Below, piece by piece: positions 26,588-51,327 of a DNA stretch of 58,362 bases (positions within the stretch are counted from its first letter, which is position 1; each line of letters begins with the position of its first letter). The stretch lies in NCBI GenBank assembly GCA_003134075.1, contig PLAI01000141.1, positions 30,352 through 88,713 of the forward strand. Reading direction: 5' to 3'. Below the pieces are notes generated by a model, which was not told where the DNA came from, did no database searches, and saw only the letters and a list, made by a program, of their open reading frames with translations. Position numbers and translations under genes: made by a program. The stretch comes from Methylocystaceae bacterium (lineage in GTDB: Bacteria > Pseudomonadota > Alphaproteobacteria > Rhizobiales > Beijerinckiaceae).

Positions 26588-27241
26588 TTAATCTTTTGCG
26601 CGGAACGAATCGGGGGGCGCAAGGCGACTGGCGCCTGTCTCCTCGCCAAAGCAGCCGGTATAATCGGAACATTCGGCGCAGCTTGGCGCCGCGCAGAGAG
26701 AAAAGCCTTCCATTTCGCACAGGCAACGATAAAAAAACTTCTTCCATTTCATATTTTGCGTATTGCGAGCGGCGAGCGCTGGAAAGCGTTCCCGCATCAA
26801 ACGATTCAGATCGCCGCGCGTGGAGAGTCCGAGATCTTGCCAGAGATGGTTCGGCGACATGCAGCGACGCGCCAGCATGGAGACGAGCCAGCCGGTTTCG
26901 AGCGAATCGTCGACGCGATAGCGATCGAACAAAGCGCGAAGCTGCTCTTCCTCTTCGTCGAACTCAATTACCGAGGGTTGCGCCTCCAGCGCGACGGCGA
27001 TCGACGAAGGGTAGGTAGTTACAAGAGCATCGAGGTCGGCGGAGCGCAAACCCAGGGTTTCGCCGATAGTGGCGCCTGAGGCGATCGCTTCCTGCGCTGC
27101 TAGGGTGACCAGACAGGCGAAGACATGGACGGAGAACGGGTCGCGGGGCGCGGTCGGCGCGGCTTCCCAATTCCCGCTCGCCAACGCGCCGGCGACGAGC
27201 GTATCTTTGTCAGTTCCGCGATTTTCCCCAGCCCAATCCAT
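26588..27241 (-). CDS. nifQ: Molybdenum donor NifQ
   Basis: NHLWQDLGL, NTQNMKWKKFFYRCLC, CAAPSCAEC..C. Confidence 0.93.
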   Translation of the reverse strand: MDWAGENRGTDKDTLVAGALASGNWEAAPTAPRDPFSVHVFACLVTLAAQEAIASGATIGETLGLRSADLDALVTTYPSSIAVALEAQPSVIEFDEEEEQLRALFDRYRVDDSLETGWLVSMLARRCMSPNHLWQDLGLSTRGDLNRLMRERFPALAARNTQNMKWKKFFYRCLCEMEGFSLCAAPSCAECSDYTGCFGEETGASRLAPPDSFRAKD

Positions 27242-45384: not shown

Positions 45385-47127
45385 ATGGGCTGTCACCCCG
45401 GACCCAGCATGACCATATCAGCAATGCCGTCGTCGAACTTGAGCGAATCCGCTTTGGTCGGCATCTACGAAGTATCGAAACTACTGGCATCCCCCAACCG
45501 CCTCGAACGCACCTTGGCGGGGGTGCTAGCGCTGCTATCGAGTTTTCTCGACATGAGGCATGGGCTGTTCGCCTTGCTGGATAAGCAGGGCGAACCGGAA
45601 ATCGTCGTGGGGTCCGGTTGGTCCGAGACCAACGCGAAAAAATATTTCGATCATTTGCCCGAGCGCGCGGTTGGCCAGATCTTCGCCACCAAAATGCCGC
45701 TGGTCATCGAAAACGTGCACACATCGCCTTTGTTCGAGGGGTCGGATCTCTCGGATTGGGGTCCAACGGACGGCCAGCCGTTTTCGCTGGTCGGCGTGCC
45801 GATCAAGGACGGCGACACCGTGGTCGGCACGCTGACGATCGATCGCGTATTCAGCGATCGCTCGGCGATCAGGTTCGATCACGATGTCCGCTTTCTGACC
45901 ATGATCGCCAATCTGGTCGGGCAAACATTACGGCTGCATAAGCTTATCTCGCGCGACCGCGACAGGCTGATGCAGGAGAACGCGCGCCTCGGCAAGGGCG
46001 ACCGGCCGACGATCGCCGAATCGAAGATTAACGGGATCAAGGGCATTGTCGGATCCAGCCCGTCCGTGAGCGCGGTGATCGACAAAATCCGCATCGTCGC
46101 CAAATCTCGATCGACCGTGCTGCTGCGTGGCGAATCGGGCACCGGGAAGGAATTGTTCGCGGCGGCGATTCACAATCTCTCGCCGCGCCATTCCAAGCCG
46201 TTCGTGAAGCTCAACTGCGCCGCGCTGCCTGAAAGCGTGTTGGAGTCCGAATTGTTCGGCCATGAGCGCGGCGCCTTCACGGGCGCGGCGAACTTGCGCA
46301 AGGGCCGGTTCGAACTGGCCGACGGCGGCACGTTGTTCCTTGACGAAATCGGCGAGATCACGCCTTCCTTCCAGGCCAAGCTGCTGCGCGTTTTGCAGGA
46401 AGGCGAATTCGAACGGGTCGGCGGTTCGCGCACGATGAAGGTGGATGTCCGCTTCGTTTGCGCCACCAATAAAAATCTCGAAGAAGCCGTGCAGAAGGGC
46501 GAGTTCCGCGCCGATCTCTACTATCGTATCAGCGTCGTTCCGATTTTTCTGCCGCCGCTGCGCGAGCGCAAGGGCGATCTCGGGCCTCTCGCCAACGAGT
46601 TCCTGCGCCGGTTCAACGCCGAACAGGGCACGCATCTCACGCTGTCTCCTTCCGCCATGGAGGTGCTCTCGGAATGCGGCTTTCCCGGCAACATCCGCGA
46701 ATTGGAGAATTGCGTGTTCCGCACCGCGACATTGGCGCGGGGAGAGGCGATTATCGACAAGGATTTCTCCTGCCGCAACGATGGCTGTCTCTCGGCCGTG
46801 TTGTGGAGCGGTTCGCATGAGGCGCCGTCGCCGTCGCCTCTGTTCAAGCAGCAGTTGCCGATCGTCCCCAGCCAAAAGGCGCCGGTCGCCGCCGAGCCGC
46901 GCCCGCCCGCGCCAAGCGCCGCGGAACCGGACGCGCCGATGAATTGTCCAGGGGCGGAAAACTGCACCGTTGTGGGCGTCGATCAGCGCGGCGATCGCGA
47001 GAAACTCATCCGCGCGATGGAGCAGGCGGGTTGGGTGAAGGCCAAGGCGGCGCGTCTGCTCGGCTTGACGCCGCGCCAGATTGGCTACGCGTTGCAAAAG
47101 CATGACGTGCCCGTGCGGAAATTCTAA
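45385..47127 (+). CDS. nifA: Nif-specific sigma54 activator NifA, O2-sensitive type
   Basis: GAF domain, GESGTGKE, ELFGHERGAFTGA, C-x11-C-x19-C-x4-C motif, C-terminal HTH AKAARLLGLTPRQIGY. Confidence 0.97.
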   Translation: MGCHPGPSMTISAMPSSNLSESALVGIYEVSKLLASPNRLERTLAGVLALLSSFLDMRHGLFALLDKQGEPEIVVGSGWSETNAKKYFDHLPERAVGQIFATKMPLVIENVHTSPLFEGSDLSDWGPTDGQPFSLVGVPIKDGDTVVGTLTIDRVFSDRSAIRFDHDVRFLTMIANLVGQTLRLHKLISRDRDRLMQENARLGKGDRPTIAESKINGIKGIVGSSPSVSAVIDKIRIVAKSRSTVLLRGESGTGKELFAAAIHNLSPRHSKPFVKLNCAALPESVLESELFGHERGAFTGAANLRKGRFELADGGTLFLDEIGEITPSFQAKLLRVLQEGEFERVGGSRTMKVDVRFVCATNKNLEEAVQKGEFRADLYYRISVVPIFLPPLRERKGDLGPLANEFLRRFNAEQGTHLTLSPSAMEVLSECGFPGNIRELENCVFRTATLARGEAIIDKDFSCRNDGCLSAVLWSGSHEAPSPSPLFKQQLPIVPSQKAPVAAEPRPPAPSAAEPDAPMNCPGAENCTVVGVDQRGDREKLIRAMEQAGWVKAKAARLLGLTPRQIGYALQKHDVPVRKF

Positions 47128-47132
47128 AGCCC

Positions 47133-47900
47133 ATGGTCGGCGATTTCGATCCGGACGCGCACCCGTTGGATTGGCAGGGTCAGCCGGTCCGCTGTCGCGA
47201 TTGCGCCCATTTCTCGCTCAACCGCGAGGGCCTTTGCCGCAAGGGCGCGGCGTGCGTGCGCGATCGGCGCGCGCGCCGCGTCGACGGCTTCTTCAAAAAG
47301 CATCCGCAGCTCGCGAACAACTATCTCGACCACTCCTATTTCGAGGTGCGCGCGATGGCGGCGAAATACGCCAGCCTGTTGCGCTTGCAAACCCTGTTGA
47401 TCGATCCGGAACCCGAGGTGCGCGCCATGGCTGCGGCGCGCCTCCCGACTTCGCGTCTCGGCGCGCTCGCCCGCGACCCAGAGCCGCGCGTGCGCATCGT
47501 TCTGGCCAATCGATTGGAAGGCGCCGCGTTGGTCGCGATGCTGGACGATCCCGACTATCTGGTGCGCGTGAATGTGGTGCGGCGCCTTGATCCCGATCTG
47601 CTGCCCTTGGCGGTTGGAGACGCGGACCCGGAGGTGCGCGGCTGGGTGGCGCGGCGGCTGCCGCCGGAACGGCTTGGTTTGTTGATGTTCGACCCGGAGC
47701 CATTGGTGCGCCTTGTCGTCGCCGAGCGCCTGCCGGAGGAACGGCTCGAGGCCATGCGCGAGGACGAGGATCTCCGCGTGCGCTTCACGGTGGCCGAACG
47801 CGCGCCAATGGCTTTGTTGCCGGCTCTGCTGAACGACAAGGACGAACTCGTGCGCGCGGCCGCCCAAGCCAGGCTTTCGTCATCGGAAAGCCGCGGCTGA
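47133..47900 (+). CDS. LRV Fe-S repeat protein, copy 2
   Basis: CRDC.........C.....C then DPEPEVR..AA.RL repeats; 5 nt after the nifA stop. Confidence 0.85.
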   Translation: MVGDFDPDAHPLDWQGQPVRCRDCAHFSLNREGLCRKGAACVRDRRARRVDGFFKKHPQLANNYLDHSYFEVRAMAAKYASLLRLQTLLIDPEPEVRAMAAARLPTSRLGALARDPEPRVRIVLANRLEGAALVAMLDDPDYLVRVNVVRRLDPDLLPLAVGDADPEVRGWVARRLPPERLGLLMFDPEPLVRLVVAERLPEERLEAMREDEDLRVRFTVAERAPMALLPALLNDKDELVRAAAQARLSSSESRG

Positions 47901-48136
47901 CGCTGGCTCGCGCCGCGCGAAGATCACAGTTTAAATCAAGTCGCCCCTGACAAGTATTCGGCGCGAATATAGCGCCGTTGCGCGGCAAGTCGCGTGCTAA
48001 ATAAAGGCGACGTAATCCACGCAAGACGTAATGCGGCGATAATAATATGACGTTAATTCGTCTTAGGCGCGATATATAGTTATAGTTGCATTATTATACG
48101 TTATTAATACATATAATGTCTATTTTTAGTATGTTC

Positions 48137-48152
48137 TGTTATATAGCGCACA
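48137..48152. promoter_or_regulatory. NifA UAS upstream of the YqeB-like pair
   Basis: TGT-TATATAGCGC-ACA; IHF near-match CAAGTTATTGTTT at 48194-48206. Confidence 0.65.
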
Positions 48153-48234
48153 ATTTGGTGTCGCGGTGTTGCCGCGCGGCGCGGTGGATTGCACAAGTTA
48201 TTGTTTTTAATTCGTGTATTTCTGCCATCCCGCT

Positions 48235-48250
48235 TGGCGCGCAGGTTGCA
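48235..48250 (+). promoter_or_regulatory. sigma54 promoter of the YqeB-like pair
   Basis: TGGCGCGCAGGTTGCA: GG-N10-GC. Confidence 0.8.
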
Positions 48251-48295
48251 TGGGTGTTTCGAGGGAGTGAGGCTTGGCAATCTAGGGGGCATTCA

Positions 48296-49156
48296 ATGCG
48301 GGAAGTCGTGGCGCCATCAAATCGATATATTCAACCCTATGCATTGATTCTCGGAACGAACGAGATCGCCTCCGCCGTGGCGGTGGAAATGCGCCGCGCG
48401 GGTTGGTCCGTCGTGCTTGCTCACGATCCCTTTCCCCCGGTCATTCGCCGCAAAATGGCGTTTCACGATGCCCTGTTCGGCGAATCGGTCGTGATCGAGG
48501 CGATAGAAGGCGTGCTGGCCGAGGATGTCCTCGATCTCTTGGACGCTTTGAACGCGAGCCAGCATGTAATTGTGACGCGGCTTCAACTACCCGATCTCAT
48601 CGCGCTCCGCACGCCGGAGGTCCTGATAGATGGACGAATGCAGATGTACCGCGTCACGCCAGACTTGCGCCACATAGCGCCGATGACGATCGGCTTGGGG
48701 CCGAACTTCGTGGTTGGCGAAAACTGCGACATAGCGATCGAAACGAAGCCGAGCCGATCGGGACGCCTCGTCAAGCGCGGCTCGTCCGAGAAAGCCGATC
48801 ATGATCCGCAGCGATTGGGCGGCCTGGGCAAGGAGCGGTTCGTCCATGCCTCTCGCGAAGGGCTTTGGCACACGGCGGTCGACATTGGCGTTCGTGTTTT
48901 CAAGGACTTTGTCGTCGGGCGTTTGGACGGATTGCCGGTCTGCGCGCCGGTCGACGGAGTGGTGCGCGGCGTCGCTCGCGACGGTTCGCGCATCGCGCCT
49001 GGCGTCAAGGTGCTCGAAATCGACCCGCGTGGCCGCGACGCGCAATGGACAGGAATAGACAATCGATCAACTCTAATCGCCAGGTCCGTGCTAAAGGCGG
49101 CTCAAGGCGGCGAATTGGAGCGGGCGGCGAAGTCGAACTCGTCGATTCTCGCGTAA
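48296..49156 (+). CDS. YqeB/EF2563-like protein (selenium-dependent Mo-hydroxylase accessory family), copy 1
   Basis: ILGTNEIASAVA, P..IRRKMAFHDA, IGLGPNF, APVDGVVRG, KVLEIDPR. Confidence 0.75.
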   Translation: MREVVAPSNRYIQPYALILGTNEIASAVAVEMRRAGWSVVLAHDPFPPVIRRKMAFHDALFGESVVIEAIEGVLAEDVLDLLDALNASQHVIVTRLQLPDLIALRTPEVLIDGRMQMYRVTPDLRHIAPMTIGLGPNFVVGENCDIAIETKPSRSGRLVKRGSSEKADHDPQRLGGLGKERFVHASREGLWHTAVDIGVRVFKDFVVGRLDGLPVCAPVDGVVRGVARDGSRIAPGVKVLEIDPRGRDAQWTGIDNRSTLIARSVLKAAQGGELERAAKSNSSILA

Positions 49157-49227
49157 ATCGCCGTTGCCCGCGATCCGTTTTCGCTATTCAATCCGAGTCT
49201 GGATCACCGCTAATCGAAGTTAAAGCC

Positions 49228-50052
49228 ATGAGCGAAGAAACCTGCATCCTGGTCTGTGGCGTCGGCGAGACCGCTTCGGCGGTGGCGCGCCGGCTTTTCG
49301 CCGAGGATCGCGCGGTCGCGATTCATCAGGCGACGCCGCCGCGAACGCTTCGGCGAAAGATGGCCTTCTCCGACGCATGGTTCGACGGCGCCGCGTCACT
49401 CGACGGAGTCGAGGCCAGGCGCGCCGATTTGAGCAGCGAGTTTCTGCTCGGCCTTCGAGCTCGCCAATTCATTCCGCTTCTCACGCAACGGTTCGCCGAT
49501 GTGGTCGAACGCTGGCCGTGGGACGTGATCGTCACGGCCCGCGGCGAGGACGGTTCCCCGGGGGACTATCTGGCTGATCTCGCCGATTTGACGATCGGCC
49601 TTGGCGCGGGTTTCGTTGCTGGCGAAGACTGCGACATCGCCATCGAAACACAAGGACCAGATCCTGGGGCGATCGTTCGCGCCGGCCGCGTCCCTTTGCG
49701 CCACCAGGGCAAATCCGACGGTGATCTCGCGGATCAGCACGAAGTGCGCGCGCCTTCGTCTGGCCTGTTCCAAACCACGAAAATCATCGGCGCCTTTGTC
49801 GAAGGCGGCGAGGCGCTGGGGACGGTCGGCGAAAGCGTCGTCCTCGCTCCGGTTTCCGGCCGGATCAGAGGTCTGGTTCGAAGAGGGCAGGCGGTCGCGG
49901 CCGCATCGGTAATCGCCGAGATCGCGACATCGAACGCGACGCGGGTCGCGGGCGTCTCCGATCGAGATCAACTGATTTCACGCGGCGTGGCTTTCGCGGT
50001 GGAGATGGAAGTCAGCGGGTGGGCTCCGGCGACTTTCGAGGACTGGCGTTGA
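49228..50052 (+). CDS. YqeB-like protein, copy 2 (more diverged)
   Basis: VCGVGETASAVARRL, LRRKMAFSDA, IGLGAGF, APVSGRIRG. Confidence 0.72.
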   Translation: MSEETCILVCGVGETASAVARRLFAEDRAVAIHQATPPRTLRRKMAFSDAWFDGAASLDGVEARRADLSSEFLLGLRARQFIPLLTQRFADVVERWPWDVIVTARGEDGSPGDYLADLADLTIGLGAGFVAGEDCDIAIETQGPDPGAIVRAGRVPLRHQGKSDGDLADQHEVRAPSSGLFQTTKIIGAFVEGGEALGTVGESVVLAPVSGRIRGLVRRGQAVAAASVIAEIATSNATRVAGVSDRDQLISRGVAFAVEMEVSGWAPATFEDWR

Positions 50053-50590: not shown

Positions 50591-50767
50591 GGGCGGCGCC
50601 AGCAACGAGGCATAGGTGTCGCAATCCGTCCGGAGCATTGTCCGTTCCACGACAATGATGTCGCGGCGGCGATCCATCGCGATGGCGGAGCCTTTCGCGA
50701 TGGAGAGGGAAGGGGCGAGGCTCGCCCATTCGGGCTCGACAGAGGTGAATCCCATGGTGGTGTTTTC

Positions 50768-51311: not shown

Positions 51312-51327
51312 TGGCATGTCGATTGCT
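51312..51327 (+). promoter_or_regulatory. sigma54 promoter upstream of the group II globin
   Basis: TGGCATGTCGATTGCT, near-canonical. Confidence 0.7.

What the first reader, a model, noticed from the sequence alone, without database searches (positions are those of the whole stretch)
48137..50052. Tandem YqeB-like genes under a NifA UAS and sigma54 promoter
SEEN: a perfect TGT-N10-ACA (48137-48152), an IHF near-match and a sigma54 site (48235-48250) precede two paralogues sharing ASAVA, RRKMAF.DA, IGLG..F and a C-terminal APV.G..RG segment. Copy 1 keeps EIDPR, whereas copy 2 has EIATS. KNOWN: YqeB (EF2563 family) normally travels with yqeC/selD and selenium-dependent molybdenum hydroxylases, none of which is in this window. 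INFERENCE: the family was recruited into the nif regulon, perhaps for Mo or S/Se trafficking to FeMo-co assembly or for maturing a Mo-enzyme needed during diazotrophy, with the two copies possibly forming a heterodimer.
Basis: partly seen in the sequence, partly recalled or inferred. Interest (0 to 1): 0.75.

Follow-up and report, generated by a model that had tools for sequence, protein, structure and literature searches.

The report
Nitrogen-fixation-controlled, selenium-independent YqeB-like gene pair
Two relatives of YqeB, a protein otherwise tied to selenium-molybdenum enzymes, sit behind a nitrogen-fixation (NifA/sigma-54) promoter; the first belongs to an unstudied clade found only in nitrogen-fixing Alphaproteobacteria that lack the selenium pathway and always lies beside nitrogenase or molybdenum-handling genes, so it is a good untested candidate for molybdenum processing for nitrogenase.

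Summary
Two intact genes (48296-49156 and 49228-50052, + strand) follow a perfect TGT-N10-ACA, an IHF near-match and TGGCGC-N5-TTGCA, just downstream of nifA and an LRV-FeS gene.

- **Family:** both proteins match TIGR03309 (YqeB) end to end but below its cut-off (150 and 119 bits against 220). They are superfamily members, not equivalogs.
- **Not a recent duplication:** copy 1, copy 2 and canonical YqeB form three separate, well-supported clades.
- **Copy 1:** its clade occurred in 16 of 401 genomes of the order. All 16 carry nifD, and none carries selD.
- **Neighbours and promoter:** in 79 related loci the gene lies within 10 kb of nif genes (40) or within 5 kb of mod/mop/modD/DUF2478 genes (30). 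A NifA-UAS plus sigma-54 pair precedes it in 46 of 84 cases, against 2-4% in controls. In 14 molybdenum-linked loci the UAS is fused to a ModE-box-like palindrome.
- **Copy 2:** it has lost three family motifs, belongs to a clade seen only in Beijerinckiaceae/Methylocystaceae-type methanotrophs and allies, and is probably co-transcribed with copy 1 only in this lineage.

Nif-regulon membership and independence from selenium are well supported. A molybdenum-handling role is inferred, and a heterodimer is untested. I found no paper describing this link.

The parts
48137..48152 (.). NifA upstream activator sequence, TGTTATATAGCGCACA (TGT-N10-ACA). Its first half, GTTATAT, equals the left half of the ModE-box-like element seen in orthologous loci. 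The right half is degenerate here.
   Evidence: Conserved as TGTTATAT... in related loci. No full ModE-box-like match anywhere in the window.
48194..48206 (-). IHF-like site with one mismatch to WATCAANNNNTTR, between the UAS and the promoter.
   Evidence: Weak: 26 such sites in the window against 15.8 expected.
48235..48250 (+). Sigma-54 (-24/-12) promoter, TGGCGC-N5-TTGCA, 98 nt downstream of the UAS and 46 nt before the start codon.
   Evidence: 3 matches against 0.28 expected. The equivalent site is conserved upstream of orthologues.
48296..49156 (+). Copy 1, 286 aa. A stand-alone TIGR03309-domain protein of the diazotroph-restricted clade. It keeps PPVIRR, DxRMQ (DARMQK in the clade), GLGPNF..G.NCD.AIET, LGG.G.ERF, AP.DG..RG and EIDPRGR. 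The Rossmann-like loop reads GTNEIAS instead of GxGxxA.
   Evidence: AlphaFold2 model with pLDDT 89.6. Clade support 96-100.
49157..49227 (+). 71-nt spacer between the two genes, with no terminator-like site and no promoter-like site. Co-transcription is inferred.
49228..50052 (+). Copy 2, 274 aa. A member of a separate clade of the same superfamily, seen only in Beijerinckiaceae/Methylocystaceae-type organisms. It keeps GxGxxA (GVGETAS), P..LRR, GLG.GF..G.DCD.AIET and AP..G..RG, but has lost RMxK, G.ER and DPRG.
45385..47900 (+). Context: nifA (45385-47127) and the LRV-FeS gene (47133-47900) lie directly upstream. A 395-nt AT-rich spacer (47% G+C) follows and carries the regulatory sites.

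Best explanation
The locus is a two-gene operon driven by NifA and sigma-54. It encodes two stand-alone proteins of the YqeB C-terminal-domain (TIGR03309) superfamily, and neither is the selenium-linked equivalog.

[quoted passage not shown] It is switched on with nitrogenase. In the many lineages where its NifA site is fused to a ModE-type operator, it is probably switched off when molybdate is plentiful.

Canonical YqeB acts in finishing a molybdenum centre, and this clade travels with nif, modA, modD, mop/TOBE, ModE-like, DUF2478 NTPase-like and ArsC-like 'nitrogenase-associated' genes. The most likely job is therefore selenium-independent handling of molybdenum for nitrogenase when molybdenum is scarce: binding, reducing or thiolating molybdate, or passing it on. 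It would act alongside NifQ and not in its place.

Copy 2 is a motif-degenerate relative. In this lineage it has been placed behind copy 1 and probably acts as a non-catalytic or modified partner.

Shown here: the homology, the clade structure, the absence of SelD/YqeC, the restriction to nifD-positive genomes, the synteny and the promoter conservation. Inferred: NifA dependence in vivo, co-transcription, the molybdenum chemistry and any interaction between copy 1 and copy 2.
For: **Homology**
- Both proteins give full-length TIGR03309 matches of 149.7 and 119.3 bits.
- The family motifs are shared with an enterobacterial 541-aa YqeB whose neighbour is a YqeC-family gene.

**Selenium independence**
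- The own genome has no selD above the cut-off and no yqeC.
- None of 15 other carrier genomes has selD, while both canonical-YqeB genomes do.

**Restriction to diazotrophs**
- 16 of 401 genomes of the order carry the clade, 62 carry nifD, and all 16 carriers are among the 62. The hypergeometric P is 1.7e-14.

**Synteny**
- 40 of 79 loci have nif or fix genes within 10 kb. Examples are nifB-nifA-fixR/yqeB in Rhodopseudomonas, and nifHDKEN-yqeB in Acidocella, Acidiphilium, Nitrospirillum and Methylocella.
- 30 of 79 loci have ModA, ModD, Mop/TOBE, ModE-N-like, HTH+PBP-like or DUF2478 genes within 5 kb.
- 22 loci have the TIGR01616 'nitrogenase-associated' ArsC-like gene, in most directly downstream on the same strand.

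**Promoter**
- A UAS plus -24/-12 pair in the right geometry precedes the gene in 46 of 84 cases. This compares with 3.6% of other gene upstream regions and 1.7% of random windows in the same loci.
- The pair is present even in Methylosinus loci that are not next to nif genes.
- A composite UAS/ModE-box-like element occurs in 14 of 30 molybdenum-linked loci and 0 of 47 others.

**Precedent and known function**
- The morAB operon of R. capsulatus is activated by NifA and repressed by Mo through MopA/MopB (PMC6925177).
- Canonical yqeB is genetically required for selenium-dependent purine use in C. difficile (PMC11448449).
Against: - There is no expression or biochemical evidence.
- The window's own promoter lacks the right half of the ModE-box-like element, so molybdenum control is uncertain here.
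- NifQ is present in 61 of 62 nifD-positive genomes, including this one, so no obvious gap needs filling.
- 46 of 62 nifD-positive genomes in the sample fix nitrogen without this gene, so it is dispensable or conditional.
- One orthologue lies beside an alternative nitrogenase D-G-K cluster. This fits a molybdenum-starvation response better than direct molybdenum insertion.
- Truncated globins and an unknown 196-aa gene co-occur in 26 of 79 loci, which allows a redox or oxygen-related role.
- The fold search gave no informative whole-protein match: TM about 0.27, with only Rossmann-like and biotinyl/lipoyl-like barrel pieces.
Confidence: 0.6

Rival explanations
1. The proteins mature an ordinary molybdopterin enzyme, such as a xanthine-dehydrogenase/CoxL-type hydroxylase needed during diazotrophic growth. 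They would act like XdhC-type cofactor chaperones, as the public annotation 'xanthine dehydrogenase accessory factor' implies.
For: - Sources name the homologues 'xanthine dehydrogenase (accessory factor)'.
- Canonical YqeB is fused to XdhC domains in enterobacteria.
- The genome has one molybdenum-hydroxylase large subunit on contig C101.
Against: - Neither protein gives any Pfam match, including XdhC_CoxI and XdhC_C.
- Only one weak, distant hit to the hydroxylase large subunit was found in all 79 loci.
- The clade is absent from all 339 nifD-negative genomes sampled. Many such genomes would be expected to have molybdenum hydroxylases; this was not checked here.
- The neighbours are molybdate-level genes (modA, modD, mop, ModE-like), not molybdopterin-synthesis or hydroxylase genes.
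Confidence: 0.1
2. The proteins are nucleotide-dependent redox partners of the adjacent haem proteins (two truncated globins and a cytochrome c'-like protein). Together these would form an oxygen or nitric-oxide protection module for nitrogenase, with no role in molybdenum handling.
For: - Globin or orf196 homologues lie within 10 kb in 26 of 79 loci, and directly downstream in the window.
- The N-terminal half is Rossmann-like, and copy 2 keeps a GxGxxA loop.
Against: - Most loci (53 of 79) have no such globin.
- The ModE-box-like operator and the mod/mop/modD neighbours point to molybdenum, not oxygen.
- Copy 1 itself has lost the second glycine of the nucleotide loop.
- The only functional knowledge of the superfamily concerns a molybdenum centre (PMC11448449).
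Confidence: 0.12
3. The proteins move sulfur, or traces of selenium, to nitrogenase metal clusters. They would act as a persulfide or perselenide carrier through the conserved Cys of the NCD.AIET motif.
For: - Cys144 is conserved in at least 80% of both the copy-1 and copy-2 clades.
- Canonical YqeB is tied to labile selenium on molybdenum (PMC2276186, PMC11448449).
- nifS, nifU and iscA genes are in the same island.
Against: - None of the 16 carrier genomes has SelD.
- The Cys that more than half of the canonical clade has after DPRG is an invariant Trp in this clade.
- No cysteine desulfurase is a conserved immediate neighbour.
- The third paralogue in this genome lacks Cys144.
Confidence: 0.08
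4. The genes are passengers with no nitrogen-fixation function. The upstream sites would be chance matches or would serve the neighbouring genes.
For: - The IHF site is not above chance.
- About three quarters of nifD-positive genomes lack the gene.
- Copy 2's clade occurs at unrelated loci.
Against: - The promoter pair is conserved across at least ten named genera at 55%, against a 2-4% background.
- The clade is strictly restricted to nifD-positive genomes, P = 1.7e-14.
- The reading frames are intact and the motifs strongly conserved.
Confidence: 0.05

Closest known systems
YqeB / EF2563 family (NCBIfam TIGR03309), the marker of the labile-selenium cofactor trait of selenium-dependent molybdenum hydroxylases (Haft and Self 2008, PMC2276186; C. 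difficile yqeB deletion, PMC11448449)
   Same: - The same domain from end to end (profile positions 2-252 of 256).
- For copy 1, the same motifs: P..(I/L)RR, RMxK-type, GPGF..G..D.AIET, AP..G..RG and (E/D)IDPRG.
- The same size as the stand-alone Firmicute form.
- An association with a molybdenum-related process.
   Different: - The scores are far below the equivalog cut-off (150 and 119 bits against 220; true members score about 394).
- The proteins form separate clades.
- The genomes have no SelD or YqeC, and the loci show no linkage to hydroxylase genes.
- The genes lie in nif or mod neighbourhoods under NifA/sigma-54 control.
- The Cys that follows DPRG in many canonical members is Trp here.
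- Copy 2 lacks DPRG, RMxK and G.ER altogether.
Rhodobacter capsulatus morAB (ModAB-like) operon: activated by NifA/RpoN and repressed by molybdenum through MopA/MopB at a Mo-box (Demtroeder et al. 2019, PMC6925177)
   Same: - The same regulatory logic in the orthologous loci: a NifA UAS and sigma-54 promoter combined with a ModE-type palindrome.
- A molybdenum-linked accessory function outside the core nif genes.
- The morABC deletion has no phenotype under standard conditions, which warns that this gene may also be conditionally dispensable.
   Different: - The proteins are unrelated: MorABC is a transporter.
- In the window itself the operator's right half is degenerate.
NifQ, the molybdenum donor to NifEN/NifH in FeMo-cofactor synthesis (my own knowledge: Hernandez et al. 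2008)
   Same: - A nif-regulated, molybdenum-related accessory protein.
- Dispensable when molybdate is high.
   Different: - The fold is unrelated.
- NifQ co-exists with this gene: it is in the window at 26645-27121 and in 61 of 62 nifD-positive genomes. The YqeB-like protein therefore does not substitute for it.
XdhC/CoxI-type molybdenum-cofactor chaperones
   Same: - The public annotation of the homologues.
- The canonical enterobacterial YqeB carries XdhC-like N-terminal domains fused to the TIGR03309 domain.
   Different: - Neither window protein gives an XdhC Pfam match.
- The XdhC part is simply absent from these stand-alone proteins.

Membership tests
TIGR03309 YqeB equivalog (selenium-dependent molybdenum cofactor biosynthesis protein) | HMM score at or above the curated cut-off of 220 bits | tested here: not met
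   149.7 bits for copy 1 and 119.3 bits for copy 2. Enterobacterial YqeB scores about 394 bits.
TIGR03309 YqeB equivalog (selenium-dependent molybdenum cofactor biosynthesis protein) | Full-length match to the domain and the conserved family motifs | tested here: met
   Profile positions 2-252 and 1-252 of 256 are matched. Copy 1 keeps all motifs. Copy 2 lacks RMxK, G.ER and DPRG.
TIGR03309 YqeB equivalog (selenium-dependent molybdenum cofactor biosynthesis protein) | Co-occurrence with selenophosphate synthetase SelD | tested here: not met
   The best selD-model hit in the own genome is 54 bits against a cut-off of 125. None of 15 other carrier genomes has selD, while 2 of 2 canonical-YqeB genomes do.
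TIGR03309 YqeB equivalog (selenium-dependent molybdenum cofactor biosynthesis protein) | Co-occurrence with YqeC | tested here: not met
   TIGR03172 gives no match in the own genome, which is 90.6% complete. The canonical locus L091 has a YqeC-family gene next to yqeB.
TIGR03309 YqeB equivalog (selenium-dependent molybdenum cofactor biosynthesis protein) | Linkage to molybdenum-hydroxylase (xdh-type) genes | tested here: not met
   The genome has one hydroxylase large subunit, on another contig. Only one weak hit (34% over 138 aa) was found in the 79 related loci.
NifA/sigma-54 (nif) regulon | TGT-N10-ACA about 80-150 nt upstream of a GG-N10-GC (-24/-12) promoter in front of the gene | tested here: met
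   UAS at 48137-48152 and promoter at 48235-48250, 98 nt apart.
NifA/sigma-54 (nif) regulon | Conservation of the sites in front of orthologues, and co-occurrence with nitrogenase genes | tested here: met
   The site pair is present in 46 of 84 cases against 3.6% and 1.7% in controls. All 16 carrier genomes have nifD, and none of 339 nifD-negative genomes carries the clade.
NifA/sigma-54 (nif) regulon | NifA- and RpoN-dependent transcription | not testable with these tools
No paper with expression data for this gene was found.
ModE/Mop (molybdenum) regulon | Palindromic ModE-type operator (GTTATAT-N8-ACATAAC type; RTTATGT-N8-RCATAAY in PMC12327845) at the promoter | tested here: not met
   The window has only the left half (GTTATAT), and the right half reads ATTTGGT. 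The full element is present in 14 orthologous loci, all with molybdenum-gene neighbours.
XdhC/CoxI accessory proteins | Pfam XdhC_CoxI or XdhC_C domain | tested here: not met
   No Pfam family matched either protein at E up to 1.

The most novel reading that the evidence does not exclude
The diazotroph-restricted YqeB-like protein carries out the long-missing step between molybdate uptake and NifQ. Its frequent neighbours, the ArsC-like 'nitrogenase-associated protein' (TIGR01616) and the DUF2478 NTPase-like protein, would act with it. Together they would reduce and/or thiolate molybdate into a form that can enter the Mo-Fe-S cluster pathway, by chemistry parallel to placing labile selenium on molybdenum in canonical YqeB systems. 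The step would be needed mainly when molybdenum is scarce. Copy 2 would be a catalytically dead scaffold subunit specific to methanotroph-type lineages.
Probability: 0.2. Interest if true: 0.9.

Novelty: new variant of a known kind. Interest (0 to 1): 0.66.

Why it matters
How molybdate taken up by ModABC becomes the molybdenum that NifQ hands to NifEN is an open step in nitrogenase cofactor biosynthesis. It also matters for attempts to transfer nitrogen fixation to new hosts.

This analysis points to a conserved gene that is annotated only as 'xanthine dehydrogenase' and that no paper I found describes in a nif context. In loci drawn from Rhodopseudomonas, Xanthobacter, Methylocystis, Methylosinus, Methylocella, Azospirillum, Nitrospirillum, Acidocella and others it has three properties:
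- In an order-level sample it was found only in genomes that carry nifD.
- It usually carries a NifA/sigma-54 promoter, and often a ModE-type operator.
- It is usually embedded among nif or molybdate-handling genes.

Several of these organisms are genetically tractable, so the hypothesis can be tested directly. The analysis also shows that the YqeB domain, used in comparative genomics as a marker of the selenium-cofactor trait, has at least two selenium-independent clades. This cautions against reading YqeB homologues as evidence of selenium use.

Tried and rejected
- **Selenocysteine in the third paralogue.** The in-frame TGA on contig C242 could have been selenocysteine. I rejected this because the genome has no selD and the position is variable in the family.
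- **Replacement of NifQ.** Rejected: NifQ is in the window and in 61 of 62 nifD-positive genomes.
- **Class-level and phylum-level even sampling.** These were too sparse to be informative, with 3 of 301 and 4 of 401 genomes matching. Order-level sampling was used instead.
- **Solved structures.** A sequence search found nothing. The fold search of a confident model gave only domain-level resemblances, to Rossmann-like folds and to the biotinyl/lipoyl-like barrel of pyruvate carboxylase and BesA. No whole-chain relative and no XdhC structure appeared among the 50 hits listed.
- **YqeC against DUF2478.** No detectable sequence similarity.
- **Literature.** Searches for YqeB + nitrogenase, 'xanthine dehydrogenase accessory' + NifA, and RPA4632-4634 found no description of this gene. 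Oda et al. 2005 (R. palustris nif transcriptome) is not held.
- **morAB.** The mor proteins turned out to be ModABC-like, so morAB is only a regulatory analogue.
Full report
**1. What is in the sequence**

The region lies in a complete nif island. It holds nifHDKEN, nifX-associated genes, fdxN, nifQ, iscA-nifUSV, nifW, fixABCX, nifB and nifA. nifA (45385-47127) and an LRV-FeS gene (47133-47900) come first. A 395-nt AT-rich spacer (47% G+C against 62% for the window) follows, and then two co-oriented ORFs.

The spacer carries three sites:
- TGTTATATAGCGCACA at 48137-48152, a perfect TGT-N10-ACA.
- A one-mismatch IHF-like site at 48194-48206.
- TGGCGCGCAGGTTGCA at 48235-48250.

TGT-N10-ACA occurs 10 times in the window against 3.0 expected, and seven of these sites lie in front of gene starts in the nif cluster. 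The strict sigma-54 pattern occurs 3 times against 0.28 expected. The IHF match is not above chance.

The genes are 48296-49156 (286 aa) and 49228-50052 (274 aa). They are separated by 71 nt with no terminator-like hairpin.

**2. What the proteins are**

Both match NCBIfam TIGR03309 (YqeB) over the whole profile, but at 149.7 and 119.3 bits against a curated cut-off of 220. Neither matches any Pfam family, including the XdhC families. They are 31% identical to each other.

An enterobacterial-type YqeB fetched as a yardstick scores about 394 bits. It is a 541-aa fusion of XdhC-like N-terminal domains with the TIGR03309 domain and sits next to a YqeC-family gene.

An AlphaFold2 model of copy 1 is confident (pLDDT 89.6, pTM 0.88). 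It shows an N-terminal Rossmann-like alpha/beta half and a C-terminal beta-barrel half. The fold search found only domain-level resemblances, to Rossmann-like folds and to biotinyl/lipoyl-like barrels. There was no whole-chain relative, and the sequence search found no solved relative.

The superfamily is large, with 2,845 clusters at 50% identity. On trees of representatives, copy 1, copy 2 and canonical YqeB fall into three separate clades. Support was 100, 100 and 99 with FastTree, and 96, 100 and 99 SH-aLRT with IQ-TREE. The two genes are therefore old relatives brought together, not a recent tandem duplication.

Motif comparison across clades:

| Motif | Copy 1 clade | Copy 2 clade |
|---|---|---|
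| Rossmann-like loop | GTNEIAS (second Gly replaced by Asn) | GxGxxA kept |
| P..(I/L)RR | kept | kept |
| DARMQK | kept | lost |
| GLGP.F..G.NCD.AIET | kept | kept |
| G.G.ERF | kept | lost |
| AP.DG..RG | kept | kept |
| EIDPRGR | kept | lost |

**3. Selenium is not involved**

The own genome is 90.6% complete. It has no selD above the cut-off (best hit 54 bits against 125) and no yqeC. It has a single molybdenum-hydroxylase large subunit, on another contig. Fifteen other genomes that carry the copy-1 clade also lack selD. The two canonical-YqeB genomes searched in the same call have it at about 445 bits.

Earlier comparative work had noted that lone YqeB homologues may serve selenium-independent processes (PMC5029168), but gave no context for them.

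**4. Copy 1's clade belongs to nitrogen fixation**

- **Phyletic pattern.** In an even sample of 401 genomes of the order, 16 carry the clade and 62 carry nifD. All 16 carriers are nifD-positive, and none of 339 nifD-negative genomes carries it. The hypergeometric P is 1.7e-14.
- **Synteny.** Among 79 loci from named genomes, 40 have nif or fix genes within 10 kb. The genera include Methylocystis, Methylosinus, Methylocapsa, Methylocella, Rhodoblastus, Methyloceanibacter, Rhodopseudomonas, Bradyrhizobium sp. STM 3843, Xanthobacter, Azospirillum, Nitrospirillum, Acidocella and Acidiphilium. In Rhodopseudomonas the gene is divergent from fixR-nifA-nifB. fixR2 is RPA4633 in strain CGA009, so the gene lies just outside the cluster usually quoted as RPA4602-4633.
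- **Promoter.** A TGT-N10-ACA lies 50-220 nt upstream of TGG-N9-TGC, within 450 nt of the start, in 46 of 84 cases. The same arrangement occurs in 3.6% of other gene upstream regions and 1.7% of random windows in the same loci. It is present even in Methylosinus loci that are not next to nif genes.

**5. The molybdenum link**

I clustered all neighbours within 5 kb and scanned them against family libraries. The recurrent neighbours are:
- ModA and ModD, both above their cut-offs.
- Mop/TOBE proteins.
- A ModE N-domain-like protein directly downstream.
- An HTH plus molybdate-binding-like regulator.
- DUF2478, an NTPase-like protein.

Thirty of 79 loci have at least one of these, and 65 of 79 have nif or molybdenum genes. 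The TIGR01616 ArsC-like 'nitrogenase-associated protein' is present in 22 loci, in most directly downstream on the same strand.

In 14 loci the NifA UAS is extended to GTT(A/G)T(A/G)T-N8-A(T/C)A(T/C)A. This has the architecture of ModE operators (RTTATGT-N8-RCATAAY, PMC12327845). All 14 are molybdenum-linked loci, that is 14 of 30 against 0 of 47. Only 20 matches exist in 2.9 million strand-bases scanned (both strands of about 1.46 Mb of loci), and 15 of them are at this promoter. Such a composite site would let molybdate-bound ModE compete with NifA. R. capsulatus morAB shows the same logic experimentally (PMC6925177).

The window keeps only the left half of the operator, so molybdenum control here is doubtful.

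The genome's third paralogue, on contig C242, is followed by a DUF2478 gene. It is preceded by the palindrome ATCATATA-N7-TATATGAT just upstream of a sigma-54-like site. My results agree with it and extend it.

**6. Copy 2**

In these searches its clade appeared only in Beijerinckiaceae/Methylocystaceae-type organisms: Methylocystis, Methylosinus, Methylocapsa, Methylocella and Beijerinckia.
- It lies directly behind copy 1 only in the window's near relatives (L005-L009, L070).
- In Methylosinus-type loci it lies about 1.7 kb away, among mop/TOBE, globin and ModE-like genes.
- In Methylocapsa acidiphila and Beijerinckia mobilis it lies alone at housekeeping loci.
- It never has its own NifA/sigma-54 sites.
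- A same-genus genome has copy 1 only.

NifA control of copy 2 is therefore a local innovation that arises through co-transcription. The complementary motif losses make a partnership with copy 1 plausible, but it is untested.

**7. Mechanism, rivals and limits**

The best-supported reading is a NifA/sigma-54-driven, selenium-independent YqeB-like accessory that handles molybdenum for nitrogenase under molybdenum scarcity. It would act alongside NifQ, which is present in the window at 26645-27121 and in 61 of 62 nifD-positive genomes.

Cautions:
- About three quarters of the sampled diazotrophs lack the gene.
- One orthologue sits by an alternative-nitrogenase D-G-K cluster, which fits a molybdenum-starvation response.
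- Globins co-occur in a third of the loci.
- No expression data could be obtained.

The rivals are maturation of a molybdopterin enzyme, a globin redox partner, a sulfur carrier, and a passenger gene. Each is less consistent with the phyletic, synteny and operator data, but none is excluded biochemically.

**8. Novelty**

I found no paper linking YqeB homologues to nif. Public annotation is 'xanthine dehydrogenase (accessory factor)' or 'hypothetical'. I rate this a new variant of a known kind: a known domain family in a new, selenium-free, nif- and molybdenum-regulated role.

Noticed in passing
Own genome contig C242 (locus L002, 1540-2295, minus strand): A third paralogue of the copy-1 clade ends at an in-frame TGA aligned with Q250 of copy 1. 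The frame stays family-like after the stop (WTNPDARARAIAKAG). The genome has no selD, so this is probably a recent nonsense change or an assembly error, not selenocysteine. The paralogue also lacks the conserved Cys of NCD.AIET.
   Followed up: partly
L002, 866-1543 (minus strand) and 2296-2420 (upstream region): The third paralogue is followed by a DUF2478 gene (156 bits). It is preceded by the perfect palindrome ATCATATA-N7-TATATGAT, 9 nt upstream of a sigma-54-like TGGCCTGAAGCTTGC. This looks like a molybdenum-repressible sigma-54 promoter.
   Followed up: partly
Loci L010, L011, L013-L016, L018, L020, L024, L030, L034, L035, L038 and L079, 156-222 nt upstream of the tblastn match start of the YqeB-like gene: A composite element in which the NifA UAS overlaps a ModE-box-like palindrome (for example TGTTATATACGTGACAATATAGG). 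It is found only in loci with mod/mop/modD/DUF2478 neighbours.
   Followed up: yes
L045, 2600-5800: A second YqeB-like gene of one MAG lies about 4 kb from an alternative nitrogenase D-G-K cluster. A delta-subunit ORF with CLWQFFSRTWDRREN is visible.
   Followed up: partly
22 related loci, for example L005 14618-15088: The TIGR01616 ArsC-family 'nitrogenase-associated protein' is present near the YqeB-like gene, in most of these loci directly downstream on the same strand. It is a possible oxyanion reductase partner. The window itself has no copy at this position.
   Followed up: partly
window 48093-48122 (minus strand): A strong sigma-70-like promoter match (TAGACA-18-TATAAT, 11 of 12) lies inside the AT-rich spacer. 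It points away from the YqeB-like genes towards the end of the LRV gene, with no obvious gene to serve.
   Followed up: no
window 50639-50654 and 51312-51327: A further TGT-N10-ACA lies upstream of the cytochrome c'-like gene, and a near-consensus sigma-54 site (TGGCATGTCGATTGCT) lies 12 nt before the group II globin start. The downstream haem cassette therefore seems to have its own nif-type control. Globin or orf196 homologues accompany the YqeB-like gene in 26 of 79 loci.
   Followed up: partly
L093 and L094, 8001-8822: Copy-2-clade genes of Methylocapsa acidiphila and Beijerinckia mobilis sit alone near ubiA and an rsmE-like gene. They have no NifA or sigma-54 sites, so this clade has a life outside the nif regulon.
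   Followed up: partly
window 26645-27121 (minus strand): A NifQ gene lies between the iscA-nifU operon promoter and fdxN. My composition-based ORF filter missed it, and the genome search found it.
   Followed up: partly
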